This document shows positions 8,887-49,957 of a DNA stretch of 64,000 bases, piece by piece. The position numbers and the translations under genes are program-made. The stretch lies in contig JADKIH010000007.1 of the NCBI GenBank assembly GCA_016721305.1, positions 112,595-176,594 on the forward strand, in the 5' to 3' direction. The DNA is from Bacteroidota bacterium (GTDB taxonomy: Bacteria > Bacteroidota > Bacteroidia > AKYH767-A > 2013-40CM-41-45). Numbering within the stretch: position 1 is the first letter of the stretch; every line of letters starts with the position of its first letter. Under the pieces are notes generated by a model that saw only the letters and a program-made list of their open reading frames with translations, did no database searches and had not been told where the DNA came from.

Positions 8887-9648
8887 ATGAAATTCACATT
8901 TTTGGGCACCGGCACTTCGCAAGGTGTTCCTATGATAGGTTGTAGGTGCAAGGTGTGCACATCTTCCGATCCTCATGATGCACGGCTTCGTACGTCTCTG
9001 ATGATCGAAGAAGGTGATTCCCGCATCGTAATCGATTCCGGTCCCGACTTCCGACAACAAATGCTAAGAACGGCTGTACAGTCGCTCGACGCTATTGTTT
9101 TTACCCACGAACACAAAGATCATATTGCCGGCCTGGACGATGTGCGTGCGTTTAATTACCTCCAGCAACGCCCAATGGACGTTTATGCTACAGAGCAAGT
9201 TCAGGTGGCTTTAAACAGGGAATTCCATTACATCTTTAACGGTGACAACTACCCGGGAATTCCAAAGATCAATCTGCACGAAATTCACGATGCAGCCTTT
9301 GAAGTTGCCGGAATTCGTTTCATTCCAATACCCGTCATGCACATGCGACTTCCGGTTCTCGGTTTCAAAGTAGGAGGGTTCTCATATATCACCGACGCGA
9401 ATTACATTCCGGATGCTTCGAAAGAACTAATTCGAAATTCCGACGTTCTTGTTTTAAATGCTCTGCGTAACGAAAAACACATTTCGCATTTTAATCTGAA
9501 CGAAGCACTTGAAATGATTGAAGAGCTTCAGCCGAAACAGGCTTATCTTACCCACATTTCACATCAATTAGGATTACAAAAAGAGATCGATGAAATATTA
9601 CCGGCACATGTAAAATGTGCATTCGATGGTTTAACCGTGACTCTTTAA
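8887..9648 (+). CDS. MBL-fold metallo-hydrolase (PhnP/GumP-like)
   Basis: 253 aa with an HxHxDH motif (THEHKDHIAGLDD). Confidence 0.7.
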   Translation: MKFTFLGTGTSQGVPMIGCRCKVCTSSDPHDARLRTSLMIEEGDSRIVIDSGPDFRQQMLRTAVQSLDAIVFTHEHKDHIAGLDDVRAFNYLQQRPMDVYATEQVQVALNREFHYIFNGDNYPGIPKINLHEIHDAAFEVAGIRFIPIPVMHMRLPVLGFKVGGFSYITDANYIPDASKELIRNSDVLVLNALRNEKHISHFNLNEALEMIEELQPKQAYLTHISHQLGLQKEIDEILPAHVKCAFDGLTVTL

Positions 9649-9660
9649 TTTTTCTCCTAA

Positions 9661-11772
9661 TTATACCAGTTGGTTTTTTTTGCTGACGAAATATATCCCT
9701 GAAAATAACAGGAGTATTGTCAAGCCAATCAATCCCCATTCACCAAGCGTAGGAACTGCCGCCGGCGTTCCATATCTCATTTCCATTCTTGCAGGAGGAG
9801 AGTCTGCTTGCCAGTCGGCTCCATAATTTGTACTTATTTCTAAAGCGCATCCACGAAGTATGACATTCGGAAAGAACCACCCTGATCGGTAATCCATATT
9901 TGTCCGTACGAATGAAGCGTCGGGCTTTCTCTGATCACAACTCCCGCAGGCAAAGTTCCGCCAATTAAATCCAGTTGAATTATCTCCGTGTCGAAAACTC
10001 TGAGAGGTAAAGCTGTTTGAACCAATTCAACCTTTTGTTTTAAAAGAGCTGTACAGGAAACAGGAATTGCACCGCTTCCTGAATTATAGGTACCGGTAAA
10101 ATCACAGGTGAAAGAAATGATCGAAGAACCGGAAGCGGGAAGTGGAGCACCGGGTGAAAAATTCTTGAACACAGCATTAGAGATCGAAATGCCGCCACCA
10201 TTATAAATGCTGACACTCGTGATAATAATTGGAGGATTAGTTGTAATGATTGGTGGAGTCGGAGGCAGGCTATCGTTTGGTACAATAACTTCCTCATGAG
10301 GAACAGCTGTTGCAAATTTCACAATTCCTCCATCCCAATTTCCGCCACCAAAAGTATTTTGATGACCACCTGAAGCAATACCGGTTGTACTCTTTACGGT
10401 GCCGGCTAAATAAACATCACCAAATACATTTACGGTGACACGTGCTTCTTCTTCATGAAGATTTCCGTAGTATGTAGCACTGGCACGAAAGCCATTTGAA
10501 GTGAAAGCAGCCAGGCATAAATTTTCTGTACCAATCAATGTATTCTGAAAACCATAAGGGGTCGCAATGCAATTACCAACGTTAGGCGTATAGGTATCTG
10601 AAGTCAGAAAAACATTTCCAAAAGCATCGGCTGCAACATCCGTTCCTTCATCATTCCCGGTTCCTCCGTAATAAGTACCCCAAACGCGGTTTCCTGCAGC
10701 ATCGAATTTTACAAGGTAAGCGTCAGCCCATCCGCCAAACGTATTTTGAAAGCCGCCTGAAGCAATATTATTCGGGCTGTCCGTTCTTCCGGAAAGATAA
10801 ATAAAGCCTGATGGACCTGTGGCAATACCAAATCCCCACTCAGTTCCTGTTCCACCATAATAAGTCGACCATATTGTATTACCTGATGGATTAAACTTCG
10901 CAACAAAAGCATCCTGATCACCACCTGATACATTTTGAAATCCACCCGACGCAATACTATTCGTACTGCTTGTAGATCCGCCAATCACAATATTTCCTGA
11001 AGCATCAACAGCAATGTCAAAACCATAATCCTGATCGGTGCCGCCGAAATAACTTCCCCATAACCGTGTACCTGACGAATTATATTTTACCAGAAACGCA
11101 TCCTGAAAACCACCACTGCTTGGTTGGTGAGTTCCTCCGGTTCCAATATTAGTGGTACTTCCCGTCGTTCCTGTCATATAAACATTGCCTGCAGCATCCG
11201 TTGCTACATCAGCTCCCTGATCAAAATCCGAACCGCCACAATACGTCGCCCAAAGTCGATTTCCATTTGAGTCAAATTTTACAAGGAAAGGCATCATCCA
11301 CGCCATTAAATGTAGATTGAAACGCACCCGGAGATGCAATTCCGGTTGTACTTTCAGTATATCCGGTTATGTATACATTTCCTGAATTATCTGTTCTAAC
11401 ACCATATCCAAAATCACCACCCGAACCTCCGTAATATGTTGCCCAAAGACGAACACCTGCACCATTAAATTTTACAAGATATGCATCAGCACCTCCTGCA
11501 TTAGCTGTTTGATAAGCCCCCGGACTGGAGATCCCACTTGCGCTATAAGTCCAACCGACTACATAAACATTACCTGCGGCATCTGTCGTAACAGCATTCG
11601 CAAAATCGTCAGCTGATCCTCCGTAGTAAGATGCCCAGAGTCGGTAGTTTTGTGCGATGCTAAAATTTGTGATAGCAGCGAAAACCAAAAACAAGAGTAA
11701 TTGCTTTTTCATTGGAATTATTTTTGCGTGGGATAAGAAATAAAGACTGATAAAAATTCCGGAATCTCCCAA
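9661..11772 (-). CDS. secreted SBBP (beta-propeller) repeat protein with IPTL-CTERM-like sorting tail; reading frame broken twice
   Basis: Three overlapping ORFs (11272-11772, 9840-11339, 9661-9897) encode one protein. It has a signal peptide (MKKQLLLFLVFAAITNFSIAQ) and about 10 repeats of the form YGGxxxDxGxxVxxDxxGNVYxTGxTxS. The extreme C-terminus AAVPTLGEWGLIGLTILLLFSGIYFVSKKNQ matches IPTL-CTERM: a PTLxEWG motif, then a TM helix, then a basic tail. Confidence 0.6.
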
Positions 11773-11936
11773 AGCCTTATCAGGCGCTGAAATTCACGGT
11801 GGTGGTGGTATTTTCCAAAGATAGATTTTATTCTTTCACTTCAAAATCAAAAAACAAATTCATGGGAATAAACGGTATGACATAATGCAGAATCAAGCAA
11901 AATCGTATATTTAACGAAGCCAGTACGGAATAAACT

Positions 11937-12516
11937 ATGGGATATAACAAAGCAAAAAAGAGCAGGAAAATCAATTCAGGCAAAAACCTATGGTTGTTGA
12001 AATTTAAAGAAAACTGGAATTCAAAGAAACCTGTCCTTCTCTTTGTTTTAATTTTCCTTCTCATTCTGGTCGCTTTTATTCGTTCCTGCTCACCGCCTTT
12101 TATCTGGAAAAATTCAACCGCGAATTGTTAACGTCAATGCTGCAATTTCAAATTTTATACTGAATACCCTCGGACAGAAAACAACCGCCGTGGCTGAAAA
12201 TATTTATTCTGCAGCTTTTAACATTAGCGTAAAACGGGGATGCGATGGAGTAGAAGCAATGGCACTTTTTGCCGCAGCATTACTGGCATATCCTGCAGCC
12301 TGGAAACTGAAGGCGAAAAATCTGCTCATCGGAATTAGCCTGCTTTTTTGTTTAAATATCATTCGCATTGTAAGTCTGTTTATGATTGGAGTCTATAAGC
12401 CACAATACTTCGAAACTTTTCACATTGAAGTCTGGCAAGTCATTTTTATTCTTGTTGCTGTAACGATGTGGATCATTATGTTGAGCAGGTATTCAAAAGC
12501 AAAATCACATGCTTAA
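11937..12516 (+). CDS. xrtF: exosortase family protein XrtF (frameshifted near 12055-12075)
   Basis: Multi-TM protein with a conserved Cys motif (VKRGCDGVEAMALFAAALLAY, compare the exosortase CSG motif) and an Asn/Arg motif (CLNIIRIV). It is followed by the obligate partner gene. Confidence 0.5.
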
Positions 12517-13129
12517 AAGAAACCCTGTCATCTTCTTTTTTCTAAAAGCATTGCTTGTCTATGCGCTCTTGGCTTTCCCTTCATTTCTTTCAAAAGGTTA
12601 TGAAAAATTTTACCGTTCGGTGTCCCGAACATTTCTATCAACTGTGAGAGGAACCGGGTTTTGTGTCTTTGAGTCCAAAAATGACATTTCGGATACGGAG
12701 ATAATAATCGGGAACAAAACTCAGCTCGACGAGAATCAGAGAACTCGAACAATGAATATTCCGGTTAATTCCCACCAGGACGGCTACCTGCCAACCATAT
12801 TACTCCTGTCGTTAATTCTGGCTTCGCCAATTCCTGTTAGAAGGAAAGGGAGGGCACTTATCATCGGATTTGTGCTCATGACAGCCTTCGTCTTGTTCAA
12901 AGTTTGGATCCGAATAATGTACACCTGCGACACCAATCCGTGGCTCCAATTGACTAATCCATCCAATTCCCAAATGAAAATAGTGAGCTTTATCAAAGTC
13001 AATTTCGTTACCTACGGAGCCCCATCTCTGACGCTCACCGTCATCTTATGGCTGCTGATATCATTTACCAAAAACGACGTCGAAGCATTTCATCAAACAA
13101 ATTTTCCAATCCGAAATTCCGGAAAATAG
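12509..13129 (+). CDS. exosortase F system-associated membrane protein
   Basis: 206-aa TM protein overlapping the XrtF stop, in the typical XrtF-partner arrangement. Confidence 0.45.
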   Translation: MLKRNPVIFFFLKALLVYALLAFPSFLSKGYEKFYRSVSRTFLSTVRGTGFCVFESKNDISDTEIIIGNKTQLDENQRTRTMNIPVNSHQDGYLPTILLLSLILASPIPVRRKGRALIIGFVLMTAFVLFKVWIRIMYTCDTNPWLQLTNPSNSQMKIVSFIKVNFVTYGAPSLTLTVILWLLISFTKNDVEAFHQTNFPIRNSGK

Positions 13130-16493: not shown

Positions 16494-18444
16494 ATGAAAA
16501 TTAAAAGCTTCTTACTGACCCTGCTCATCACTCTCTCACTCGCGACATACGCACAAAATAAGGAGGAGTTAACTTCATCTGTACCAAAAGCCGTTAGAGC
16601 ATTCGAAACAGCTTTGAAATACTACGATGGCAGGTTGAACCAAAAAGCAGTTGAAGCACTTGATGAGGCAATCGAAGCCGACCCTAAATTTGTAGAAGCA
16701 CATACATTGAAGGGCAACATTCTCTCCGACATGAAAGAATATGAAAAGGCCATTGCCAGTTATAAGAATGCAATTACAGCGAGTCCTGATTTTTTCCCAA
16801 ACACGTATTACTCACTCGGAAAATTACAATACCGAGCCGGGCATTATGAAGAAGCAAAATCTTCGTTCACAAAATTTTTAAGTTATGATAAAATCAGCCC
16901 GGGGCTAAAGCAAGGAGCAAATGTTCTGAGTGCGAATTGTGATTTTGCAATCAATGCAGTTAAAAATCCTGTAGCATTTGACCCGACGAATATGGGTGAT
17001 AGCATCAACTCAAAAGAAGACGAGTATTTCCCATCGTTTACAGTAGATGGACAATCTTTGCTCTTCACTCGTAAATTACCTTCAGGGAGAACATTTCAGG
17101 AAGACTTTTATAAATCAGAGTTAAAAGGATCTTCGTGGTCATTTGCAAAAGCTGTTACCGAGTTAAATACACCGGCTAACGAAGGAGCGTCTTTTATGAC
17201 GGCCGATGGACAATACTTATTTTTTGCCTCTTGTGAAGAGCTTGGAAATCCTGATTCGCGTCCGACCAAGGGAAGCTGCGATATTTTCATTGCTAAAAAA
17301 GTCGGCGATAAATTTATGAATCCGCGTGATTTGCTTGAACCGCTGAATTCAGGTGGATGGGAAAGTCAGCCATCATTTTCAACAGATGGAAGAACAATTT
17401 ACTTCGTAAAAAAAGTGAAAGAAGCTTCGAATCAAACTCACACCGATATTTATATTTCTCAATTAGACGATAAAGCAAATTGGAGCGTTCCTGTTTCAGT
17501 AAGTGATAAGATCAATACAAAGATGAATGAAAGCGCCGTCTTTATTCATCCCGATGATCAGACATTTTATTTCACATCAAACGGACATCCGGGAATGGGA
17601 GGAGAGGATATTTTTTATTCACGTCGTCAGATCGATGGAACTTGGGGCGATCCTGTAAACTTAGGCTATCCGATAAATACCGTCAACGATGAATTTGGTT
17701 TTGCCGTAAGTCCCGATGCTAAAACAGGGTACTTTGTTTCTGATCGTCCGGGCGGTTTGGGTGGTCTCGATTTATATTCATTTCCATTGTACGAAAGTGC
17801 GAGACCAAAAATCGTAACATACATGAAAGGTCGAGTTTTCGATAGTGAAACGAATGCACCTTTGGATGCATCTTTTGAATTGATTGATCTCGGTACTGGA
17901 AAAGTTATGGTTCGATCTGTGTCTGATTCCAAAACCGGTGAATTTCTTTTATGCCTTCCAACCGGCAAAACAATATGCGCTCAATGTTTCACGTTCCGGC
18001 TATTTATTCTATTCCGATCACTTCGAATTGAAAGATCCTGCTACAGCAAGTAAGCCTGTCAAAAAAGATATTCCGCTCAAACCAATCAAAGCCGGACAAA
18101 CCATTGTCCTCAACAATATCTTTTACGAAACCGACAAGTTCGATTTAAAGCCGGAATCAAAAATTGAATTGGATCGATTAGTAAGTTTCCTGAACAACAA
18201 TCCGAAAGTCCATTTCGAAATCAGCGGTCACACCGATAATGTAGGCGGAAAAGAGTACAACAAAACGCTCTCTGAAAAGCGTGCAAAAACCGTCTATGAT
18301 TATTTAGTCACCGCCGGAATTCCTGCAACAAGAATGAGTTCAAAAGGTTTTGGAGACACCGTCCCTGTTGCCGAAAACACATCCGATGCCGGTAGAGCGA
18401 AGAATCGGAGGACGGAGTTTAAGGTGACTTCTTTGGACAATTAG
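16494..18444 (+). CDS. OmpA family protein with N-terminal TPR and TolB-like beta-propeller repeats (frameshift near 17950-18050)
   Basis: Two overlapping ORFs. The C-terminal OmpA-like domain reads NNIFYETDKFDLKPES...HTDNVGGKEYNKTLSEKRA. Confidence 0.75.
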
Positions 18445-18548
18445 CTAATGGGCTGATTAGCTAATTAGCTAATGATGTTTCATCGGAAGCAGTTGGTGTA
18501 GCGCCATCAGCTAATCAGCTAATCAGCTAATCAGCTAATCAGCTAATT
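18441..18548. repeat. Inverted pair of (AGCTRATT)n arrays forming a potential long hairpin between the convergent OmpA and kdsA genes
   Basis: Left arm ttagctaatgggctgattagctaattagctaatga; right arm atcagctaatcagctaatcagctaatcagctaatcagctaatt. Confidence 0.75.
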
Positions 18549-19354
18549 GGCAACAGCACGTATCGCCACCAACTTCACCAACAACCCCTCCAGCAAATCC
18601 AAATGCAGCATATTAGCGCCGTCGGATTTTGCGTTTTTCGGGTCGGGGTGAGTTTCTACGAAGATGCCGTCGAAGCCCGTAACAATTCCTGCTTTAGCGA
18701 TGAGTTCTATGAGATCGGGACGACCGCCGGTAACACCGGAAGCTTGATTGGGTTGTTGCAGTGAGTGTGTGATATCGAGAATGACAGGAACATTATTCTT
18801 CTTCATTTCAACAACGCCACGGTAATCAACGATCAAATCCTGATAGCCGAACATCGTTCCGCGCTCGGTGAGCATGACGTGATTATTTCCGGCACCGCGA
18901 ACTTTATCCACAGCAAATTTCATTGACTCGGCTGCGAGAAATTGTCCCTTCTTGATGTTTACGGTTTTGCCCGTTTCTGCAGCAGCAACTAAAAGTTCTG
19001 TCTGGCGACAAAGAAAAGCCGGGATCTGCAGTACATCGACGTACTTCGCAGCAATTGCAGCGTCATCGCTTTCGTGAATATCGGTTACAATGGGCACCTG
19101 AAAAGTATCACGAACTTTTTCAAAATCTCCAATGCGTTTTCATCGCCTATACCGGTGAATGAATCCGTACGAGTACGATTTGCTTTGCGATAGCTAGCTT
19201 TAAAAATAAAAGGAATTTTTAAACGGTCTGTAATTTCTTTAACTCGTTTTGCGATTCCCATCGTCATTTCTTCGCTTTCAACTACACATGGTCCTGCAAG
19301 GAGGAAGAAATTTCCGGAATCGGTATTTTTTATAAATGGAATATGATTCAACAT
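18543..19354 (-). CDS. kdsA: 3-deoxy-8-phosphooctulonate synthase (1-bp deletion in an A6 run near 19128)
   Basis: Two ORFs. The N-terminal half reads LNHIPFIKNTDSGNFFLLAGPCVVESEE. Restoring one A gives the continuous ILKKVRDTFQVPIVTDIHE. Confidence 0.85.
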
Positions 19355-19358
19355 CGCA

Positions 19359-20600
19359 TTAGAAATATTTGCCCAAAGATACAAAAGCCCCTTGAGCGCG
19401 TCCGTTTTTGAGGAAGAGCGCATCTACATAATCGCTGCCTATACGCAGTCTCCAGCCCTGGCGGGAATACTGATACGACAATCCGATATGAAATCCGCTA
19501 TATCCACCGTAACGCAGCTTTAGTGCTGCTGTATGATTGGAAGTGATTGTATAAGTATGAAGCTGATAAATCAGCAATTTAGATTCTGCATTGAATGTTT
19601 GCGACAGACCTGTCTCCATCGTCCATTTCTTCTTGACAGGAATTGAATAACTCACCTGGATGGTTGCCGGCAACCAGGTTGTTTCTGCCAGATAAGTTCT
19701 GTTTTTCAAATAAGGCTGAACTAAAGAGGAATCAAGATTGATGGATGATTCGACAGTGTCGGCAAAATTAAATAACTCGGAGATATCAACGCCTTCGAAT
19801 CGAAAAGCTGTATCAGCCGTAACGAACGACGACTTCGAATTCCAGCTGATGAAACCGATATTAGATGCTTGCACCCGAAGCAATCGTTTCTTACTGTCTG
19901 TCCACTTGAAACCGAATTGCATCGTTCCGCCAAGTCCATTCACATCAGTGATATTATTTTTGACGGAGTCTGAACGATGAATGTGCAGATTCGCGTCGAG
20001 ATCGATATAGTCACCAAACTCCGAAGTAAAAACAGTTGCCCTCGGTGCTTCGATCAAAAGATATTTTTGGCCTTTATTAATTCCAAAACCGCCCCACCAT
20101 TCAATAATATTCGTTTCATGTCGGAACCAGTGGCCAAAAGTAAAGGTAGCTTGCTGATAGTTTAGTTGTCGAAATAAAAAATCAGATAAGTCGGCAGTTT
20201 TTTTAGCGTAATTTTTATTTCCCCGGAAATAAACTTCAAACACATCTTTGCTGAAATCGGAACTGAAGTGATAGTTGTTAGAGAAATTAACCTCGTACCA
20301 AACATGACGCAAACCAAACATTGAATCAGGTTTATGCTTGTATTGAACACCGGCTGAAAAACCGGCTCCGAAATAATTTTTGTCTTTGAGCTTCGGGCTC
20401 ACCTGATCTTTCATATCATCCGTAATGAATGAATTTCGGAAGTATGTCGAGCCCAATTCGTTTGTCAGAGCATTAGATCCGAAGAAATACTCGGTATTAA
20501 TTCCAATAAAATTCACTGCCGTCGAATCCGAATAAGATTTCGACGAAGCAGCAAACGAAAGTATAAGGAATAAAGAGAGAAGCGAGAATATTCTTTTCAC
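19359..20600 (-). CDS. hypothetical outer-membrane beta-barrel protein
   Basis: Signal peptide MKRIFSLLSLFLILSFAASS, alternating amphipathic strands and a C-terminal aromatic (..GKYF). No family recognised. Confidence 0.45.
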   Translation of the reverse strand: MKRIFSLLSLFLILSFAASSKSYSDSTAVNFIGINTEYFFGSNALTNELGSTYFRNSFITDDMKDQVSPKLKDKNYFGAGFSAGVQYKHKPDSMFGLRHVWYEVNFSNNYHFSSDFSKDVFEVYFRGNKNYAKKTADLSDFLFRQLNYQQATFTFGHWFRHETNIIEWWGGFGINKGQKYLLIEAPRATVFTSEFGDYIDLDANLHIHRSDSVKNNITDVNGLGGTMQFGFKWTDSKKRLLRVQASNIGFISWNSKSSFVTADTAFRFEGVDISELFNFADTVESSINLDSSLVQPYLKNRTYLAETTWLPATIQVSYSIPVKKKWTMETGLSQTFNAESKLLIYQLHTYTITSNHTAALKLRYGGYSGFHIGLSYQYSRQGWRLRIGSDYVDALFLKNGRAQGAFVSLGKYF

Positions 20601-27302: not shown

Positions 27303-27372
27303 GTAGCGAGGGGGGGAGTCGAACCCCCGACCTCAGGGTTATGAATCCTCTCTACCATCGAGCACCCCAATT
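27303..27372 (-). tRNA. tRNA-like element: canonical T-arm and 3' acceptor, CAT-containing anticodon loop, defective 5' half
   Basis: Minus strand reads GGGGTGCTCGATGGTAGAGAGGATTCATAACCCTGAGGTCGGGGGTTCGACTCCCCCCCTCGCTA. The T-arm GGGGGTTCGACTCCCCC is canonical, but the D-stem is missing and the 5' acceptor is not complementary. Confidence 0.4.
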
Positions 27373-27379
27373 TTTTCTT

Positions 27380-27447
27380 GGGTCGAAACCCCGTCCGCCG
27401 TGGCGGATATGAATCCTGCGCTCTAACCATCTGAGCTACCTCGCCGG
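27380..27447 (-). tRNA. tRNA-like 5' half (acceptor + D-arm + anticodon loop) lacking a T-arm and 3' acceptor
   Basis: GGCGAGGTAGCTCAGATGGTTAGAGCGCAGGATTCATATCC then a GCCACGGCGG hairpin. Its 5' acceptor GGCGAGG is complementary to the 3' acceptor CCTCGCT of element 27303-27372. Confidence 0.35.
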
Positions 27448-29313: not shown

Positions 29314-30555
29314 TCAGAACGCAGCAATTTTATCCGACATATATTCTCCGGCTTTCAGTTTCACATACGCTTTGCGGAAGGCTTCGATAGTATATGTAAC
29401 ATCTTCGAGAGTATGTACGGCAGTAGGAATTAATCGGAGAATGATAATACCCTTTGGAACGACAGGATAAACGACCATAGAACAGAAGATATCGTAGTTC
29501 TCACGCATATCGTAAATCAGGTTGGTTGCTTCACCGATGGTACCGTTCATGTAAACAGGAGTAACCGGAGATTGTGTTTTACCAATATCAAATCCGGCTT
29601 CTTTCAGTCCGTTTTGAAGCGCATTCACTACTTTCCAGAGATTGTCTTTCAATTCCGGTTTTGTGCGAAGCAATTCCAAACGTTTAAGAGCGCCTGTAAC
29701 CAGAGCAGAAGGCATCGACTTGGCGAAAATCTGCGAACGCATATTGTAACGCAGGTATTCAACAATGTCTTCACGACTTGAAATGAATCCTCCGATCATC
29801 GCCATACTCTTGGCAAAGGTTCCGAAGTAAATATCGATTTCATCCTGAACGCCTTGTTCTTCACCGGTACCTGCACCGGTTTTACCCATTGTGCCGAAAC
29901 CGTGAGCATCGTCAACAAAGAGACGGAACTGGAATTTCTTTTTTAAGGCAACGATATCTTTCAAACGACCCATATCACCGCTCATACCAAAGACGCCTTC
30001 AGTAATCACTAAGATAGAACCGCCTGTTTCTTCAACAATACGTGTAGCTCTTTCTAATTGCTTTTCGCAGTTTGCGATATCATTATGAGGAAAAACAAAA
30101 CGTTTTCCCATGTGTAAGCGAACACCGTCGATAATACAAGCGTGGCTTTCGCTGTCGTAAACAATAACATCATGACGATCAACCAGGCAATCAATGGCCG
30201 AAACCATTCCCTGATAACCGTAATTGAGCAGAATAGTATCTTCTTTGCTCATGAAGGCTGAAAGTTCATTTTCAAGCTGTTCATGCTGATTCGTATTGCC
30301 CGACATCATTCTTGCACCCATCGGAGAAGCGAAACCATAATTGATAGCGCCTTCTGTATCAGCTTTCCGAACGTCAGGATGATTGGCTAAACCAAGATAA
30401 TTATTCAGACTCCAAACCAATCGTTCTTTTCCACGAAATACCATTCTCGTTCCGATATCACCTTCCAGTTTTGGAAAAGTAAAATAACCATGAGAATCTT
30501 TCGCATGCTGACCAATTGGTCCACGATTCTTTTTTAATTTTTCAAATAAATCCAC
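29314..30555 (-). CDS. PLP-dependent alpha-oxoamine synthase (serine palmitoyltransferase / CapB / KBL-like)
   Basis: 413 aa with class II aminotransferase fold signatures (GFASPMGARMMSGN, FGTFAKSMAMIGGF lysine region). Confidence 0.75.
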   Translation of the reverse strand: MDLFEKLKKNRGPIGQHAKDSHGYFTFPKLEGDIGTRMVFRGKERLVWSLNNYLGLANHPDVRKADTEGAINYGFASPMGARMMSGNTNQHEQLENELSAFMSKEDTILLNYGYQGMVSAIDCLVDRHDVIVYDSESHACIIDGVRLHMGKRFVFPHNDIANCEKQLERATRIVEETGGSILVITEGVFGMSGDMGRLKDIVALKKKFQFRLFVDDAHGFGTMGKTGAGTGEEQGVQDEIDIYFGTFAKSMAMIGGFISSREDIVEYLRYNMRSQIFAKSMPSALVTGALKRLELLRTKPELKDNLWKVVNALQNGLKEAGFDIGKTQSPVTPVYMNGTIGEATNLIYDMRENYDIFCSMVVYPVVPKGIIILRLIPTAVHTLEDVTYTIEAFRKAYVKLKAGEYMSDKIAAF

Positions 30556-31017
30556 TTTTATTATTCTTTAATGATTCACAAAAACACTGATAACTTCGAT
30601 GAAAAGAAGTTTTAGTAAACCTTGTTAAACACGCCAAATTTAAGCACGATGAAGGCAAAAGTAACTCTTTTGGTTTAAAAACCAAGGAAATTTTCAAACA
30701 AGGGGGTGTTGTTAACTTGCCAGTATGGCCCGACACGATGGATTGAATTAAGAATTTAGAGTTCAAAATTTGGAAAAATTGGGATGCAACAGCAGGGGAA
30801 AGCATGTAAACTTCACCCTTATGTTTTGAATATCAATACATTAAGCTGTCTCAAAAAATAGTGTCTAAGCCATGATTTAGTGCTTTGGGTTCTAAATTAG
30901 AAAAGGCCTAAAAGCGGTTGGATTCAGCACATTATCAGCCCGGTTGACCGATAATTCAGCCAAACATCAACGTGTTCTAGCTTTTTTAATGCACTTTTGG
31001 CGCTCGAAAAAATCCAT

Positions 31018-33402
31018 ATGAAAATTAAAAATCTACTATTAGTGGGATTGGTCCTGCTGGGTTTCCAAAGTTTCGGACAAAACATTCAACTGGCTGCCAA
31101 TTTAAGTTATGGTAACAGTGCTTTGGCAAATATTGGCGGTTACGTCGATTCTTTAGGAAACGAATATGCGTTAGTCGGAACCGATTTCGGTTTGTCCATC
31201 GTCGATGTCACAGACCCTGCTAATCCGGTGATCAGATTCACCGTCAATGGTCCATCGTCTGATTGGCGTGAAGTGAAAACGTACAGAAAATATGCTTACG
31301 TTACTACAGAAGGCGGTGGTGGCTTACAAATAATCGATCTCTCTAATTTGCCGGCAACGATTAACTCTCATAATTGGACAGGCGATGCAGCGATTTCCGG
31401 ACAATTGTCATCTATACATGCTTTGCATTGCGATACGGCGAAAGGATTTCTTTACTTGTATGGTAGCAATATCGGTTCAGGTCAGTCATTGTTTATCGAT
31501 TTAGCTGATCCGTGGAATCCACATTATGCAGGTTCGTATACTTTTCCGGGTTCAGGAAATGATCGGTATGTGCATGATGGATTTGTTGTGAACGACACGA
31601 TGTATGAATCTCATATTTACTCAGGCTTCTGTGCAATCGTTGAAGTAAGCGACAAGGCGAATCCGGTACTATTAGCTACGATTTCTACACCAACGAACTT
31701 TACTCATAACACCTGGCTTTCCGACGATCATAAAACGCTCTTTACGACTGACGAAAACAGTGCATCATATCTGGGCATTTTTGATATTCATGATTTGGCA
31801 AATATTACGGAAATCGGTCGTTGGCAAACGGCTCCCGGTTCAGGCTCCATTATTCACAATACGCATATCCTGAATGACTACGCAATTACTTCGTGGTACA
31901 CGCAGGGCGTTGTGATTACCGATGTTGCGCGTCCGCACAATCCGATAGAAGTAGGGCATTACGATACATATCCTGCTTCCGATGGAAACGGATTTTTCGG
32001 TTGCTGGGGTGTGTACCCATTCCTGCCTTCGGGAAATTTAGTTGCATCCGACATCAACAATGGTCTTTTCGTTTTAACTCCGACTTATGTGCGAGCTTGC
32101 TACCTCGAAGGAATAGTAACCGACAGTGTAACCGGCGCATTTTTAAATGGTGCAGTCGTAGAAATTCTAACAACAGGAATTACAAAGTCTTCTGATTTAA
32201 GCGGACAATACGCTACAGGTACGGCAACGGCAGGCACTTACGATATCCGAATTAGCAAATCAGGTTATTATACTCGTACCATGACAGGAGTGAGTCTTGT
32301 TAACGGTGTACTGACGACACTGGATGTAAAACTAGTGCCTTTCCAAACATTCGCTTTTAGTGGACATGTGAACGATTCAATTTCGGCTGCAGGAATTGCG
32401 AATGCTTCCATCGTGTTATCATCAACAAATGGACTTACCTACACAGCAACAACAAATGCTTCCGGAGATATTATTTTCCCTGCCGTAGTTCCCGATACAT
32501 ACACGCTTTATGCAGGTAAGTGGGGCTATCGTACTACTTGCGGAACGGTTACATTAGTTCCGGGCGACTCGGTGAATACACTGCTTGCGCAAGGATATTA
32601 CGATGACTTTACATTCGATTTCGGCTGGACGGTAAGCGGTACTTCAGGAAACGCATGGGAAAGAGGAGAACCGACCGGAACATTCGACGGAAACAGTACA
32701 GAGATCAATCCTGAATACGATGCTTCGGGCGATTGCGGCGACCAATGCTTCGTTACCGATAACGGTGGATCTCCATATAACAATCATGATGTGGATAATG
32801 GAAATACCATCCTGACTTCTCCTGTTTTCGATGCAACGATCTATCAAACGGCAACATTGTCATACTACCGCCGTTACCTCGATATCAATGGTACCGGCCA
32901 ACCAAACGATACAATGAAGGTTTATCTGACCGACGGCGTATCAACCGTACTTGTTGAATCGGTAGGTCCAAATGCAAGTGGAAACGGCACATGGGTTCAC
33001 AAAACCTTTACGTTGGGGTCATTAATGACGGCCGGAACCAATATGCAAATCCGTGTGGAAGTAGCTGACAATACCCCCGGTAATATCGTTGAAGGCTCAT
33101 TCGACCAGTTCGAAATTACAGGTCAGCTCGTTAACGGAATCGGTACAATGGCAAAAAACGACCATATCACGGCCTTCCCTAATCCGTTCAGCAAATCAAT
33201 TGCAATTTCTTATGAATTAGGCAATTATAACTCAACTGCTCATCTGATTATTCGTGACATTACAGGACGTATAGTCGAGGAAACCGATCATTTATCACAG
33301 CAAGGAAGCATTACCTTAGGTGAGGAGTTAAATCCGGGAATTTATCTGACCGAATTATGGAATGGAAACAATCGAACGCTTTGCAAAATAGTTAAGCAAT
33401 AA
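31018..33402 (+). CDS. T9SS C-terminal-target protein with LVIVD repeats and Ig/CarbopepD-like domains
   Basis: Signal peptide MKIKNLLLVGLVLLGFQSFGQ, LVIVD-type repeats (GLSIVDVTDPANPV) and a type-A T9SS CTD (...GIYLTELWNGNNRTLCKIVKQ). Confidence 0.7.
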   Translation: MKIKNLLLVGLVLLGFQSFGQNIQLAANLSYGNSALANIGGYVDSLGNEYALVGTDFGLSIVDVTDPANPVIRFTVNGPSSDWREVKTYRKYAYVTTEGGGGLQIIDLSNLPATINSHNWTGDAAISGQLSSIHALHCDTAKGFLYLYGSNIGSGQSLFIDLADPWNPHYAGSYTFPGSGNDRYVHDGFVVNDTMYESHIYSGFCAIVEVSDKANPVLLATISTPTNFTHNTWLSDDHKTLFTTDENSASYLGIFDIHDLANITEIGRWQTAPGSGSIIHNTHILNDYAITSWYTQGVVITDVARPHNPIEVGHYDTYPASDGNGFFGCWGVYPFLPSGNLVASDINNGLFVLTPTYVRACYLEGIVTDSVTGAFLNGAVVEILTTGITKSSDLSGQYATGTATAGTYDIRISKSGYYTRTMTGVSLVNGVLTTLDVKLVPFQTFAFSGHVNDSISAAGIANASIVLSSTNGLTYTATTNASGDIIFPAVVPDTYTLYAGKWGYRTTCGTVTLVPGDSVNTLLAQGYYDDFTFDFGWTVSGTSGNAWERGEPTGTFDGNSTEINPEYDASGDCGDQCFVTDNGGSPYNNHDVDNGNTILTSPVFDATIYQTATLSYYRRYLDINGTGQPNDTMKVYLTDGVSTVLVESVGPNASGNGTWVHKTFTLGSLMTAGTNMQIRVEVADNTPGNIVEGSFDQFEITGQLVNGIGTMAKNDHITAFPNPFSKSIAISYELGNYNSTAHLIIRDITGRIVEETDHLSQQGSITLGEELNPGIYLTELWNGNNRTLCKIVKQ

Positions 33403-46659: not shown

Positions 46660-48557
46660 CCCAGAGTATTTCCTTCTACATATTGAATTTCTTCGTTATC
46701 CAAAAGCCATTCGATAACCTTAATCGATTTTTCTTCGGCCAATGGTCGGAGCTGAACAACTAACTCATGCAATTCGATAGGCTTCTTCACCAGTAAATTT
46801 TTCACCCGCAATTTTGTCTGATCAAATTCCATATCAGAAATTCCCGTCTTGTTACGCTCCAGGCAATAATCACAGACTCCGCAACGCTCTGTATCCGTTT
46901 CTCCGAAATAAGCAACGAGCATCTGCGAACGACAACGATTTTTTGTCTCCGAATAATGCAAAAACGATTTCACCTGTTCAATTGCCATCTCTTTTCGCAT
47001 CGCTAAATTTTCTCTGTCGATATACAGATTGCTTTGCTCCAATCGCCCTGAAGTATAAGTCAATTGTGGTACATCGCTTTGTGGTTGATAGGTGAGAACT
47101 TTTAAATGATTCAGCTGCGTCAAAAGTCGAACAGCTTCATCTTTGCTCATGGTAGCTCGTAAAGCAATTTCATTTTCGTTGATTTGAACATATTCATCAA
47201 ACACTCCTTCATAAAGACGAAGAAGTACTTTAATAAAATGATCGAACTTCGGATTTTTAACCTGATACTCGTATAAATCATTAGCCCGAATAGTAAAATG
47301 AATTCTCGACTGCATGAATGCCGAGTCAGATGTTGAAATCAAACCTTGTAACTCCAGAATCTTAAGACAGGAGAAAGTTTCTGCTGCCGGCAAATTATAG
47401 GTTGAACAAAACCGGTGCAAATCAAAATCGAAGCTCACACCTTTACCTGAACCAACCGGAAGCTGAAAATAATTTCCCAATGCTTGGTAAACGTGCTTCA
47501 CACGACTCATTTCCGGAAAGCTCAAGTCTATTCTCCTCTCAAGCTCTTCGCGATCATTTTGATTATAGAGAAGAACGGCATATGCTTTTTCCTCATCCCG
47601 ACCGGCACGACCGGCTTCCTGATAATAAGCTTCCAAACTGTCGGGAGAATCAACGTGAACGACAAAACGAACATTTCCCTTATCGATGCCCATTCCGAAT
47701 GCATTCGTGGCAACCACGATTCGCGTTTTCTCCTTCATCCAATTGTCCTGAATCCTGCTTCTGTCAGCGGCCGTGAGTCCTGCATGGTAGGCTTCGGCAG
47801 AAATAGAATTACGTTGAAGAAATTCTGCTATGTCTTTGGTGCGCTTTCGGGTACGAACATAAACAACTCCGGTGCCTTTTAAATTTGTTGCAACTTTTCG
47901 CAAACGATTCAATTTATCTTCTTCGTACAATACGACGTAAGAAAGATTTTTCCGCTCAAAGCTCTTACGAAATACATTTTCCTTCTTGAAATTTAGTCGC
48001 TTTTGAATATCGTTCTCAACATTCTTGGTTGCTGTAGCCGTGAGTGCCAGTACAGGAACATTTGGAAGATGAGCTCGGATATCAGCAATCTGCAAATAGG
48101 ATGGACGAAAATCGTATCCCCATTGCGAAATACAATGAGCTTCATCAACAGCCAGCAAATTAACCTTCATCAATTTGACCCGCTCAAGAAAAATATCTGA
48201 AGTAAGTCGCTCCGGTGAGATGTAAAGAAATTTCTCTTTTCCATACACACAATTATCGAGAGCAATATCAATTTCATTCCGGCTCATTCCGGAAATAATG
48301 GAGGTGGCCGGAATCCCCTTCTTCCTCAGATTTTGCACTTGATCTTTCATCAATGCGATCAAAGGAGAGATCACGATACAGATGCCGTCTTTCGCCATTG
48401 CCGGCACCTGAAAGCAAACAGACTTTCCACCACCGGTTGGCAAAAGAGCCAGCGTATCGTTTCCGGCAAGAACAGATTCTATGATCTCTTCCTGCATCGG
48501 ACGAAACGCATGATGCCCCCAGTAACGGGTGAGTATTTGCTGAATCTGCGACGACAT
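46638..48557 (-). CDS. recQ: ATP-dependent DNA helicase RecQ
   Basis: DEAH box (LLAVDEAHC), RQC with Zn Cys cluster, and HRDC domain. 639 aa. Confidence 0.9.
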   Translation of the reverse strand: MSSQIQQILTRYWGHHAFRPMQEEIIESVLAGNDTLALLPTGGGKSVCFQVPAMAKDGICIVISPLIALMKDQVQNLRKKGIPATSIISGMSRNEIDIALDNCVYGKEKFLYISPERLTSDIFLERVKLMKVNLLAVDEAHCISQWGYDFRPSYLQIADIRAHLPNVPVLALTATATKNVENDIQKRLNFKKENVFRKSFERKNLSYVVLYEEDKLNRLRKVATNLKGTGVVYVRTRKRTKDIAEFLQRNSISAEAYHAGLTAADRSRIQDNWMKEKTRIVVATNAFGMGIDKGNVRFVVHVDSPDSLEAYYQEAGRAGRDEEKAYAVLLYNQNDREELERRIDLSFPEMSRVKHVYQALGNYFQLPVGSGKGVSFDFDLHRFCSTYNLPAAETFSCLKILELQGLISTSDSAFMQSRIHFTIRANDLYEYQVKNPKFDHFIKVLLRLYEGVFDEYVQINENEIALRATMSKDEAVRLLTQLNHLKVLTYQPQSDVPQLTYTSGRLEQSNLYIDRENLAMRKEMAIEQVKSFLHYSETKNRCRSQMLVAYFGETDTERCGVCDYCLERNKTGISDMEFDQTKLRVKNLLVKKPIELHELVVQLRPLAEEKSIKVIEWLLDNEEIQYVEGNTLGWKEAKN

Positions 48558-49957
48558 TATTGCACTATTAAAAGTTCAGAGAACTGCTTTCTTGCTATTG
48601 AAAAACGAATGATGTAAGCACCCGGTGAAAGACTTTGTAGAGGAATCGAAGCTGAGTCATTTCCGGAGAAGACTACTTGGCCGGAAATATTTACCACATC
48701 AAAATGCTCCACCGATCTTTTGAGTTTTAATTCAGTTCCGGTAGAGGCAGGATTGGGATAAATGATTGATGAATGCTCCGGTACTTCACTAATTCCGATA
48801 CTTCCGGAAGGTCGCGCATAAACGAGAATATTTTGCCCAAGCGTATTGTCGGTACCCGCCAGTAAATATCCGTCATAAATAGATGGTGAAATTGTATAGG
48901 CAATATTGATAGGGGAGTCGGCAAAATAATCACGGCTTAATTCAGTGCCGGAGGAATCGGTAAGGATTAAGACAACTCTCTTTTTTGAAGTGGCCGTGTC
49001 GTATCCATAACCAGTAATCAAATACTCATGAAAAGCATTTTCCAATAAATGAAATCCCGCATCGCTTTCATTTGATGCACGCAAATATTTATGCCAGATC
49101 AATGTTCCGGCAGTAGGATCTATCTTGCTCAGAATAATATCGAAGTTCGCACTCGAATCGGTCGCAGCTTCTCCGACCAACACTAAATTTCCATCGCTGT
49201 CCTGCATCACACTTTTGCTGCCTGAATTGTAATGCGAGCTGATTGAAAGCTCCCATTGTTTCTGGCCATTGGTACTGTCGAGGCAAACCAGGAATGGATT
49301 ATAAGTTCCGGAAGTTAGTTGCTCGTCACCGCTCAAAATGATTCTTCCGTCGGCAAGAAAATGGCAATCAAAGCTTAAATTCTTTTTAATGTCATTATTC
49401 AAGAACGTCCATTGAAGGATTCCTGAAGAAGAAAATTTCTGAGCAAAAAACTGAACAAATTGAGCAGTCGTTGAATCAGGGTAAAAACCGGAAACAACGA
49501 TACAGCCATCGATATCTTCTGCGATTCCTACAATACTGTTATTCACATTGGGAGAGCCACAGTCGAATGATTGAACCACCGTTCCGGAAGTGTCGACACG
49601 CAAGACAAGCGGAGTAACATTTCCGGCCGTATACACATTGCAACAAAGCAAAAAATTCCCGGTGCGATCCGGCATCATTCGTTCAACCATCAGATGTGAA
49701 CCACCATATGAAATCAGCTTTGAAAAAATCAGATTGCCATTTTCATCGAGCTTCGAAAACTCAGCATACATCGAATCAGCATTAATATTCAATGCATGTC
49801 CACCGTAATAAATGCTTCCTGAAGAAGATTGGAATGCAGCCTTCCCGGTATGGATCAATGTAGTATCTCCGAATTCTTTTGTAAAGAAAGCCGGCTGGGC
49901 TTGCGTCAGGACTGAAACGAAGAACAAACTAAAGAGAAGGTGGATAAATTTGGACAT
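48557..49957 (-). CDS. secreted T9SS C-terminal-target protein
   Basis: Signal peptide MSKFIHLLFSLFFVSVLTQAQ and a CTD ending ...SPGAYIIRFSIARKQFSELLIVQ. Confidence 0.6.
   Translation of the reverse strand: MSKFIHLLFSLFFVSVLTQAQPAFFTKEFGDTTLIHTGKAAFQSSSGSIYYGGHALNINADSMYAEFSKLDENGNLIFSKLISYGGSHLMVERMMPDRTGNFLLCCNVYTAGNVTPLVLRVDTSGTVVQSFDCGSPNVNNSIVGIAEDIDGCIVVSGFYPDSTTAQFVQFFAQKFSSSGILQWTFLNNDIKKNLSFDCHFLADGRIILSGDEQLTSGTYNPFLVCLDSTNGQKQWELSISSHYNSGSKSVMQDSDGNLVLVGEAATDSSANFDIILSKIDPTAGTLIWHKYLRASNESDAGFHLLENAFHEYLITGYGYDTATSKKRVVLILTDSSGTELSRDYFADSPINIAYTISPSIYDGYLLAGTDNTLGQNILVYARPSGSIGISEVPEHSSIIYPNPASTGTELKLKRSVEHFDVVNISGQVVFSGNDSASIPLQSLSPGAYIIRFSIARKQFSELLIVQ

What the first reader, a model, noticed from the sequence alone, without database searches (positions are those of the whole stretch)
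9661..13129. XrtF exosortase pair directly next to an SBBP beta-propeller protein with an IPTL-CTERM-type sorting tail: candidate substrate for the orphan Bacteroidetes exosortase
XrtF (with its TM partner gene) is an exosortase family whose cognate sorting signal is, to my knowledge, undefined. Immediately upstream and divergent is a large secreted SBBP-repeat protein. Its last 30 residues are AAVPTLGEWGLIGLTILLLFSGIYFVSKKNQ: a PTLxEWG motif, then a hydrophobic helix, then a basic tail. That is the architecture of PEP-CTERM/IPTL-CTERM exosortase substrates. It is not a T9SS CTD, which two other proteins in this window carry. The adjacency suggests an XrtF-dependent, T9SS-independent surface-anchoring route for SBBP adhesin-like proteins.
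Basis: partly seen in the sequence, partly recalled or inferred. Interest (0 to 1): 0.65.

Follow-up and report, generated by a model that had tools for sequence, protein, structure and literature searches.

The report
XrtH exosortase cassette with IPTL-tailed substrate
This locus is an ordinary, database-defined exosortase H sorting cassette (not the orphan XrtF) sitting beside one of its expected substrates, a beta-propeller protein with an IPTL-type C-terminal sorting tail, and the broken reading frames are most likely sequencing errors.

Summary
An exosortase gene, a downstream membrane-protein gene and a divergent SBBP beta-propeller gene ending in VPTLGEWG + hydrophobic helix + KK are all at 9661-13129. 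The interpretation does not hold.

After frame correction the exosortase scores best as XrtH (TIGR04177, 76.9 bits, cutoff 86), not XrtF (47.2, cutoff 90). Its relatives are named "exosortase H (IPTLxxWG-CTERM-specific)". The partner weakly hits the XrtH-associated model, and its homologues sit directly downstream of XrtH in 47 of 80 related loci.

The tail passes the IPTL-CTERM models (TIGR04174, PF18203). The corrected 683-aa protein aligns end to end, tail included, with intact 686- and 712-aa ORFs in XrtH loci of two other Bacteroidota MAGs. IPTL-tailed ORFs lie within a few kb of XrtH in 34 of 80 loci.

Four single-base indels break the two genes. Three are absent from ~99%-identical short-read contigs. 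Housekeeping genes elsewhere in the window (kdsA-type DAHP-synthase-family gene, clpB) are split too, so I read them as assembly errors.

So this is a known enzyme-signal pairing in a new, uncultured Bacteroidota lineage. The one less expected point is that the partner is a remote exosortase paralogue without the catalytic Cys/Arg/His.

The parts
9661..11712 (-). SBBP-repeat beta-propeller precursor with an IPTL-CTERM tail. It is 683 aa after correcting two 1-nt indels. This is the predicted XrtH substrate.
   Evidence: PF06739 SBBP repeats. Full-length alignment to intact orthologues in L026 (57% identity) and L031 (53%), which lie in XrtH loci. IPTL_CTERM above cutoff.
11653..11712 (-). N-terminal Sec signal peptide, MKKQLLLFLVFAAITNFSIA|Q
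   Evidence: By inspection of the translation: basic n-region, hydrophobic core, SIA-Q cleavage-type site. Conserved in L026 and L031. No signal-peptide predictor was run.
11290..11290 (.). Extra base (a G on the + strand) that shifts the SBBP frame. Most likely an assembly error.
   Evidence: Absent from L001 and L002, where the N-terminal 443 aa form one called gene.
9842..9844 (.). AAA run (TTT on the coding strand) where one base is inferred to be missing. It separates the body of the SBBP gene from its tail.
   Evidence: Adding one T gives ...SYFVDALLEISTNYGADW..., which aligns continuously with L031 (...HSFFDLHMEVSLTNGADW...) and L026. No near-identical contig covers this site.
9664..9756 (-). 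IPTL-CTERM sorting signal: VPTLGEWG motif, hydrophobic helix LIGLTILLLFSGIYFV, basic end SKKNQLV
   Evidence: TIGR04174 27.0 bits on the fragment and 23.4 in the full-length protein (cutoff 20.5). PF18203 23.1 bits (cutoff 20.8). Tail-HMM E = 1.6e-10. The only hit in the window.
9757..10100 (-). Pre-tail module of about 110 aa (FDTEIIQLDLIGGTLPAGVVIRESPTL.S.G...SYFVD..EIS...G..W). It is shared with otherwise different IPTL-tailed proteins. Boundaries are approximate.
   Evidence: tblastn and MAFFT: 36-41% identity to the C-termini of the IPTL proteins in L030, L068 and L015. No Pfam or NCBIfam model matches it.
11713..11936 (.). 224-nt divergent intergenic region between the SBBP and XrtH genes
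   Evidence: Coordinates. One Bacteroidota-type TAnnTTTG motif faces the SBBP gene (11823, minus strand, 104 nt upstream). The + strand motif at 11719 is 211 nt from the XrtH start. The motif occurs about 0.7 times per kb in the window, so this is weak evidence.
11937..12516 (+). Exosortase of the XrtH type. It is 193 aa after restoring two bases at 12074 and 12108. Cys103, Arg144 and His163 are present.
   Evidence: Intact 193-aa ORF in L001-L003. TIGR04177 76.9 bits is the best hit; TIGR04178 54.6 (cutoff 23). C103, R144 and H163 are invariant in 26 homologues.
12074..12108 (.). Two homopolymer 1-nt deletions (T-run at 12074, A-run at 12108) that split the exosortase ORF
   Evidence: Direct comparison with three independent contigs.
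12509..13129 (+). XrtH-associated membrane protein, 206 aa. It is a remote exosortase paralogue lacking the catalytic triad, and its start overlaps the XrtH stop by 8 nt.
   Evidence: NF041730 19.8 bits (cutoff 35). Homologue directly downstream of XrtH in 47 of 80 loci. hhalign against XrtH: 96.6% probability, E = 6e-10. AF2 pLDDT 94.5, with the same order of secondary-structure elements up to the long helix (two helices, three strands, a helix, a long helix) as the XrtH model; the C-terminal end differs (three helices against one).

Best explanation
The locus is a three-gene XrtH/IPTL-CTERM protein-sorting cassette of an uncultured Bacteroidota bacterium.

Proposed mechanism:
1. The SBBP beta-propeller precursor is exported by Sec through its N-terminal signal peptide.
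2. It stays tethered in the inner membrane by the C-terminal helix, with the KK end in the cytoplasm. The VPTLGEWG motif sits at the outer face of the membrane.
3. XrtH, a small polytopic cysteine endopeptidase or possible transpeptidase (Cys103/Arg144/His163), recognises that motif. It removes the helix and probably passes the new C-terminus to an unidentified acceptor.
4. The translationally coupled downstream protein is an exosortase paralogue that has lost the catalytic residues. It most likely acts as a non-catalytic subunit that holds substrate or acceptor.

What is shown: gene identities, residue conservation, tail architecture, synteny.
What is inferred by analogy with ArtA/PGF-CTERM and XrtA/PEP-CTERM: cleavage, transfer, final location, and the partner's role.

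The four frame breaks are assembly indels, not biology.
For: - XrtH is the best-scoring exosortase subfamily, and clade relatives pass its cutoff and carry that name.
- The catalytic Cys, Arg and His are invariant. The triad is as described in Haft 2023 (bioRxiv 10.1101/2023.06.07.544157).
- The tail exceeds the curated IPTL-CTERM cutoffs.
- The orthologous SBBP-IPTL proteins lie in XrtH loci of two other MAGs.
- 34 of 80 XrtH loci carry IPTL-tailed ORFs. Most end 26-300 nt upstream of XrtH or start right after the partner.
- The partner is syntenic in 47 of 80 loci and is homologous to XrtH by profile-profile comparison.
- Three of the four indels are absent from ~99%-identical contigs.
- A DAHP-synthase-family (kdsA-type) gene, clpB and a TPR-PD40-OmpA gene elsewhere in the window are likewise split.
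Against: - The corrected enzyme is 9 bits under the curated XrtH cutoff (76.9 vs 86). The partner is under its cutoff too (19.8 vs 35).
- The divergent gene order is seen in none of the 80 related loci.
- The fourth indel, at 9842-9844, could not be checked against a near-identical sequence.
- Four indels in 3.5 kb is denser than my rough count for the rest of the window.
- I found no experimental study of XrtH in any organism, so the biochemistry rests on analogy.
- How an inner-membrane-processed protein would cross the outer membrane is unknown.
Confidence: 0.85

Rival explanations
1. One reading: this is the Bacteroidetes-specific XrtF with its XrtF-associated partner, and the IPTL-like tail is the long-sought XrtF sorting signal.
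For: The organism is Bacteroidota-like, because T9SS CTD proteins are present in the window. The enzyme is small with a downstream membrane partner, as XrtF is. The XrtF model gives a sub-threshold hit (47.2 bits).
Against: XrtF scores 47.2 against a cutoff of 90, and ranks fifth among family hits (fourth among exosortase subfamilies). XrtH scores 76.9 and ranks first. Homologues are named exosortase H. The partner hits only XrtH_assoc and XrtH. The tail fits the IPTL-CTERM model, whose cognate enzyme is XrtH.
Confidence: 0.03
2. The cassette is a decaying pseudogene cluster in this strain. The four frameshifts are real and the system is non-functional here.
For: There are four indels in 3.5 kb, which is denser than my rough count elsewhere in the window. 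One indel could not be checked.
Against: The four indels sit in or beside short base runs (T-run, A-run, a GG pair, the AAA run). Three are absent from three independent ~99%-identical contigs. Housekeeping genes (a DAHP-synthase-family kdsA-type gene, clpB) show the same kind of split, which a viable cell could hardly tolerate. There are no in-frame stops or larger deletions, and the catalytic residues and tail are intact.
Confidence: 0.1
3. The tail is a chance ORF or frameshift artefact. The SBBP protein really ends at the stop at 9840, and it is unrelated to the exosortase.
For: In the raw sequence the tail is in a different frame from the 499-aa ORF.
Against: Orthologues in L026 and L031 carry the pre-tail region and the tail in one frame, with 50% identity across the junction. 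The tail passes two curated models and is the only such match in 64 kb.
Confidence: 0.02

Closest known systems
Exosortase H (XrtH, TIGR04177) with IPTL-CTERM / IPTLxxWG-CTERM sorting domains (TIGR04174, PF18203) and the XrtH-associated membrane protein (NF041730)
   Same: XrtH is the best HMM match for the enzyme. The tail is above the curated cutoffs. The partner sits immediately downstream. Substrate genes are clustered with the enzyme. Cys, Arg and His are conserved.
   Different: The enzyme and the partner both fall below the curated cutoffs (76.9 vs 86; 19.8 vs 35). The Bacteroidota clade has an N-terminal extension of about 30 Lys-rich residues. The clade's partner proteins that carry a source name (from NCBI or JGI) are called 'hypothetical protein'. 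The substrate gene is divergent rather than co-directional. The cargo is an SBBP beta-propeller.
XrtF (TIGR04128, Fjoh_1448) with the exosortase F system-associated protein of Flavobacterium johnsoniae
   Same: Same superfamily. Small enzyme plus a downstream membrane partner. Bacteroidota host. In F. johnsoniae both genes are needed for surface colonisation and biofilm formation (PMC10936215).
   Different: The XrtF model scores only 47.2 against a cutoff of 90. The partner gives no XrtF-associated hit. XrtF substrates are unknown and expected to be unlike PEP-CTERM. Here the signal is a recognised IPTL-CTERM.
XrtA/PEP-CTERM and ArtA/PGF-CTERM (exosortase and archaeosortase prototypes)
   Same: The tail has the same tripartite design, with the motif abutting the helix. 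The Cys/Arg/His polytopic enzyme family is the same. The presumed steps are the same: cleavage plus attachment of an anchoring moiety (Haft 2023 bioRxiv).
   Different: The motif differs (IPTLxxWG instead of PEP or PGF). The enzyme is much smaller (193 aa). No EPS locus is evident next to it. The acceptor is unknown.
IPTL-CTERM S-layer protein mela_00855 of Methylomirabilis lanthanidiphila
   Same: [quoted passage not shown] Antibodies were raised against it to confirm its identification as the S-layer protein, and S-layer sheets were isolated (PMC8671808; I read only that passage).
   Different: Different phylum and different cargo fold. Processing by XrtH was not examined there.
T9SS type A C-terminal domains (TIGR04183)
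   Same: A C-terminal sorting signal used by Bacteroidota for surface proteins. Two such proteins are in this window.
   Different: A T9SS CTD is a folded domain of about 70-80 aa that is recognised at the outer membrane. The SBBP protein has none. It has a short motif, helix and basic tail that would be processed at the inner membrane.

Membership tests
XrtF (TIGR04128) | Score at or above the curated cutoff (90 bits), and the best-scoring exosortase subfamily | tested here: not met
   47.2 bits on the frame-corrected protein. It ranks fifth among family hits, behind XrtH, XrtX, XrtM and the TIGR04178 signature.
XrtF (TIGR04128) | Adjacent exosortase F system-associated protein | tested here: not met
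   At E <= 0.1 the partner hits only NF041730 (XrtH_assoc) and TIGR04177. Its homologues behave the same way.
Exosortase/archaeosortase superfamily (TIGR04178, PF09721) | Signature model above its cutoff | tested here: met
   TIGR04178 54.6 bits (cutoff 23). PF09721 28.2 bits (cutoff 25.7) on the 108-aa fragment.
Exosortase/archaeosortase superfamily (TIGR04178, PF09721) | Conserved Cys, Arg and His (the putative catalytic triad) | tested here: met
   C103, R144 and H163 are invariant in 26 homologues and present in the window's gene. Triad as described in bioRxiv 10.1101/2023.06.07.544157.
XrtH (TIGR04177) | Best-scoring exosortase subfamily model | tested here: met
   76.9 bits against 69.9 for XrtX, 62.4 for XrtM and 47.2 for XrtF.
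XrtH (TIGR04177) | Score at or above the curated cutoff (86 bits) | tested here: inconclusive
   The window protein scores 76.9, the near-identical P0001 77.4 and P0009 80.4, all below the cutoff. Clade relatives P0002 (95.7) and P0020 (104.2) are above it. Several relatives are named exosortase H by JGI and NCBI. I read this as a divergent clade straddling the cutoff.
XrtH (TIGR04177) | Co-location or co-occurrence with IPTL-CTERM proteins | tested here: met
   The window has a tail gene 224 nt away. 34 of 80 homologous loci have IPTL-tailed ORFs within the fetched flanks, mostly adjacent to XrtH. Genome-wide co-occurrence was not testable.
XrtH-associated membrane protein (NF041730) | Model hit and position immediately downstream of XrtH | tested here: inconclusive
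   19.8 bits, below the cutoff of 35. 12 of 25 and 14 of 46 homologues hit the model at E <= 0.01. The position is conserved in 47 of 80 loci.
IPTL-CTERM sorting domain (TIGR04174, PF18203) | Model above its cutoff, located at the extreme C-terminus | tested here: met
   TIGR04174 27.0 and 23.4 bits (cutoff 20.5). PF18203 23.1 bits (cutoff 20.8). The motif starts 31 residues before the stop.
IPTL-CTERM sorting domain (TIGR04174, PF18203) | Tripartite architecture (motif, hydrophobic helix, basic cluster) on a protein with an N-terminal signal peptide | tested here: met
   VPTLGEWG, then LIGLTILLLFSGIYFV, then SKKNQLV. N-terminus MKKQLLLFLVFAAITNFSIAQ. Both read directly from the translation. 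No dedicated signal-peptide or TM predictor was run on this protein.
IPTL-CTERM sorting domain (TIGR04174, PF18203) | Actual cleavage by XrtH | not testable with these tools
   Needs C-terminal proteomics or genetics. I found no experimental work on XrtH in the literature search.
T9SS type A CTD (TIGR04183) | CTD model hit on the SBBP protein | tested here: not met
   No hit on the full-length protein. The same library detects the CTD in 30997-33402 and 48557-49957.

The most novel reading that the evidence does not exclude
The 'XrtH-associated membrane protein' is a catalytically dead paralogue of the exosortase itself, without the Cys, Arg or His. It would work as an obligate pseudoenzyme subunit of XrtH, for example presenting the IPTL helix or the acceptor. 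Together they would give T9SS-bearing Bacteroidota a second, T9SS-independent route for displaying SBBP beta-propeller proteins, which also share a conserved pre-tail module.

The homology itself is well supported: hhalign 96.6%, and the same order of secondary-structure elements up to the long helix in two AF2 models. The functional role and the surface destination are untested. I could not establish whether curators have already noted the paralogy.
Probability: 0.4. Interest if true: 0.45.

Novelty: new member of a known kind. Interest (0 to 1): 0.22.

Why it matters
It matters mainly as a correction. The locus does not de-orphan XrtF, so that open question stays open.

What it does add:
- A clade of XrtH cassettes in uncultured Bacteroidota that sits at or below the curated HMM cutoffs. 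The partner proteins of this clade that carry a source name are called 'hypothetical protein'.
- A conserved trio of XrtH, partner and SBBP-IPTL protein, seen in this window and two other MAG loci.
- The observation that the partner is a degenerate exosortase paralogue.

These could help model curators. They could also guide anyone who wants to test exosortase biochemistry on a minimal two-protein system with one defined substrate.

Tried and rejected
- Word-indexed homologue search with the 216-aa C-terminal region of the SBBP protein: no hit.
- Exact-product look-up of the neighbouring gene 8887-9648, to fetch a contig covering the tail: not on record.
- Metagenome scan with the same C-terminal region: 144 pattern matches, none confirmed. 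The fourth indel could therefore be verified only through orthologues at 53-57% identity.
It worked with the closer set A2.
- The source species is not among the GTDB representatives. The best XrtH identity there is 52%.
- The PDB sequence search with the XrtH profile and the Foldseek PDB search with the partner model found nothing. The afdb50 library was unavailable. Structural confirmation of the paralogy is therefore limited to comparing the order of secondary-structure elements in two AF2 models.
- Haft et al. 2012 (PMC3256604) is not held.
- Searches for 'XrtH', 'exosortase H' and 'IPTL-CTERM' returned no paper on XrtH function. The only on-topic hits were a passing IPTL-CTERM mention (PMC8671808) and an 'exosortase H' mention in the epsSMASH preprint, which I did not read.
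- The PEP-CTERM regex in the window gave only one implausible hit, at 59684.
- Bacteroidota promoter motifs in the intergenic region are too common to be informative.
Full report
**What is in the sequence.**
Between 9661 and 13129 the mechanical ORF list shows several fragments:
- On the minus strand: a 166-aa ORF, a 499-aa ORF and a 78-aa ORF.
- On the plus strand: a 64-aa ORF, a 108-aa ORF and a 206-aa ORF.

Three-frame translation shows that the minus-strand pieces are one SBBP-repeat protein read in three frames. It also shows that the 64-aa and 108-aa plus-strand pieces are one exosortase. The 206-aa ORF overlaps the exosortase stop by 8 nt (ATGCTTAA).

**The frame breaks.**
A word-indexed search with a provisional join of the exosortase pieces found P0001. 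This is an intact 193-aa protein, 94% identical to that imperfect join. It is encoded on three contigs from independent assemblies. Base-by-base comparison gives 98.9-99.7% identity to the window. The differences that matter are these:
- The window lacks one T in a T-run at 12074.
- It lacks one A in an A-run at 12108.
- It carries one extra G at 11290.

In L001 and L002 the N-terminal 443 aa of the SBBP protein are a single called gene.

The fourth break separates the SBBP body from its tail. No near-identical sequence covers it. Adding one T to the TTT run (plus-strand AAA at 9842-9844) produces a 683-aa protein. That protein aligns from residue 2 to 679 with intact single ORFs in two Bacteroidota MAGs: L026:11482-13542 (686 aa, 57% identity) and L031:11150-13288 (712 aa, 53%). 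Both alignments cross both frameshift sites and run into the tail.

Elsewhere in the window three more genes are each split over two overlapping ORFs: a DAHP-synthase-family (kdsA-type) gene, clpB, and a TPR-PD40-OmpA gene. I therefore read the indels as errors of an indel-prone assembly, not as locus-specific decay. I note that four indels in 3.5 kb is on the dense side.

**Which exosortase.**
NCBIfam scores for the corrected protein:

| Model | Score (bits) | Cutoff |
|---|---|---|
| XrtH (TIGR04177) | 76.9 | 86 |
| XrtX | 69.9 | 170 |
| XrtM | 62.4 | 125 |
| General signature (TIGR04178) | 54.6 | 23 |
| XrtF (TIGR04128) | 47.2 | 90 |

- Relatives at 41-50% identity score 95.7 (P0002) and 104.2 (P0020) on XrtH. 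P0009 scores 80.4.
- JGI names many of the hits 'exosortase H (IPTLxxWG-CTERM-specific)', and NCBI names P0020 'exosortase H'.
- In an alignment of 26 homologues C103, R144 and H163 are invariant. These are the residues proposed as the catalytic triad of the family (bioRxiv 10.1101/2023.06.07.544157). The window's gene has all three.

So the enzyme is an XrtH-type exosortase from a divergent Bacteroidota clade that straddles the curated cutoff. It is not XrtF.

**The partner.**
- The 206-aa protein hits only the XrtH-associated model NF041730 (19.8 bits, cutoff 35) and, faintly, XrtH itself.
- A homologue lies directly downstream of XrtH in 47 of 80 related genomic loci.
- A full HMMER scan finds 687 representative clusters at E <= 0.001, all of about 200 aa.
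- The five clusters sampled that carry a source name (four from NCBI, one from JGI) are all called 'hypothetical protein'.
- Profile-profile comparison of the partner family with the XrtH family gives 95.2% (E = 2.9e-8) and, with a broader alignment, 96.6% (E = 6.2e-10) over about 148 columns.
- 16 of 46 partner homologues hit TIGR04177 on their own at E <= 0.01.
- In the aligned columns the XrtH Cys falls on a variable position (Gln in the window). The Arg falls on a mostly Lys position, and the His is not conserved.
- AF2 models of the partner (pLDDT 94.5) and of XrtH (pLDDT 83.0) share the order of elements up to the long helix: two helices, three short strands, a helix and a long helix. 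After it the partner has three C-terminal helices and XrtH has one, and XrtH carries an extra N-terminal helix.
- No solved structure resembles either protein.

I conclude that the partner is a degenerate, presumably non-catalytic, exosortase paralogue.

**The substrate and its tail.**
- The protein has a Sec-type N-terminus, MKKQLLLFLVFAAITNFSIAQ, judged by inspection.
- It carries SBBP repeats (PF06739, six matched stretches across the two ORF pieces).
- It then has a pre-tail region of about 170 aa with no family hit.
- The tail is VPTLGEWG-LIGLTILLLFSGIYFV-SKKNQLV.
- The tail scores 27.0 and 23.4 bits on TIGR04174 (cutoff 20.5) and 23.1 on PF18203 (cutoff 20.8).
- A regex for the motif plus helix finds exactly one instance in all six frames of the window.
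- There is no T9SS CTD hit on this protein.

**Is the adjacency meaningful?**
A scan of one genome per GTDB species returned 80 XrtH loci, all from MAGs. They come from Bacteroidota, Planctomycetota, Verrucomicrobiota, Acidobacteriota and other phyla.

A tail HMM built from these loci finds IPTL-type tails on ORFs in 34 of the 80 loci. The tailed genes are almost always in one of two places: ending 26-300 nt upstream of XrtH on the same strand, or starting just after the partner. Some loci carry up to five tailed genes in a row (L015).

A looser motif regex over the same DNA gave only three obviously spurious hits. So the clustering of substrate genes around XrtH is general. The window's divergent orientation is the only unusual feature, since none of the 80 loci has it.

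The last ~110 residues before the tail (FDTE..QLD..GG.LP....RESP...S.G...SFFD...E.S..GG..W) are shared at 36-41% identity with otherwise different IPTL proteins in L030, L068 and L015. This suggests a conserved pre-tail module.

**How it most likely works.**
The steps below are inferred by analogy with ArtA/PGF-CTERM, XrtA/PEP-CTERM and rhombosortase/GlyGly-CTERM, as summarised.
1. The precursor is exported by Sec.
2. The C-terminal helix holds it in the inner membrane, with the basic end in the cytoplasm.
3. XrtH recognises the motif that abuts the helix and cleaves it through Cys103. It may transfer the protein to a lipid or glycan acceptor.
4. The inactive paralogue, made by translational coupling, probably acts as a subunit.

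The final location is unknown. One IPTL-CTERM protein, mela_00855 of Methylomirabilis lanthanidiphila, was identified as that organism's S-layer protein in PMC8671808; I read only the passage describing the antibody test and the isolation of S-layer sheets. So a surface destination is plausible.

**Comparison with what is known, and novelty.**
The XrtH-IPTL pairing is stated in the name JGI/IMG gives these relatives; from my own recollection the curated family definitions say the same. XrtF is a different family. Its substrates remain unknown and are expected to be unlike PEP-CTERM (PMC10936215). The finding therefore does not de-orphan XrtF.

It is a new member of a known kind of system, in an uncultured Bacteroidota lineage whose XrtH and partner fall at or below the curated cutoffs. 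I found no experimental paper on XrtH. The partner-as-pseudoenzyme observation is the only element that might interest a specialist.

**Verdict.**
- Observation: confirmed.
- Interpretation: partly supported. The enzyme-plus-substrate reading is right, but the enzyme family is wrong, so the novelty claim falls.
- Interest: 0.22.

Noticed in passing
window 27304-27445 (-): Rfam tRNA match (52.3 bits, full model 1-71) that spans 142 nt. A 70-nt insertion sits right after a CAU anticodon, and the GGATTCATA segment occurs twice. ARAGORN calls no tRNA in the window. It could be an intron-like insertion, a fused or duplicated tRNA-Met, or an assembly artefact.
   Followed up: partly
window 18543-19423 (-), 50065-52676 (-), 16494-18444 (+): Housekeeping genes are split into overlapping ORFs in different frames. 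DAHP_synth_1 (kdsA-type) profile positions 16-81 and 88-257 lie on separate ORFs. The N- and C-terminal halves of clpB are separate. So are the TPR-PD40 and OmpA parts of one gene. The whole window looks like an indel-prone assembly.
   Followed up: partly
window 59302-61027 (+) and 62216-63075 (+): An MsbA-like ABC transporter ORF stops at profile position 431 of 572 and is followed by overlapping ORFs. Three overlapping ORFs at 62216-63075 also look like a frame-broken gene.
   Followed up: no
window 12509-13129 (+); alignments A3 and A4: The XrtH-associated membrane protein family is a remote paralogue of XrtH without the catalytic Cys, Arg or His (hhalign 96.6%; 16 of 46 members hit TIGR04177). 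The Bacteroidota-clade members that carry a source name (NCBI or JGI) are called 'hypothetical protein'.
   Followed up: yes
window ~9757-10100 (-); L030:7479-8018, L068:10417-10737, L015:17538-17876: A conserved pre-tail module of about 110 aa with no Pfam or NCBIfam model is shared by IPTL-tailed proteins whose N-terminal parts differ.
   Followed up: partly
window 30997-33402 (+) and 48557-49957 (-): Two proteins carry T9SS type A sorting domains (TIGR04183). The first is a choice-of-anchor B family protein. The organism therefore has both T9SS cargo and an exosortase cargo within 64 kb.
   Followed up: yes
L025 (SACF01000041.1, labelled Alphaproteobacteria bacterium): Its XrtH locus carries the same IPTL tail sequence (the 34 residues printed) as L022 (Bacteroidales) and L027 (Prolixibacteraceae). 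Its partner protein is in the same 90%-identity cluster as Bacteroidales proteins. The bin's taxonomic label is probably wrong.
   Followed up: no
window 29314-30555 (-): A BioF/Kbl-family acyltransferase scores best on the Bacteroidota-type serine palmitoyltransferase model (314.6 bits, below the 640 cutoff). This is consistent with a sphingolipid-making Bacteroidota host.
   Followed up: no
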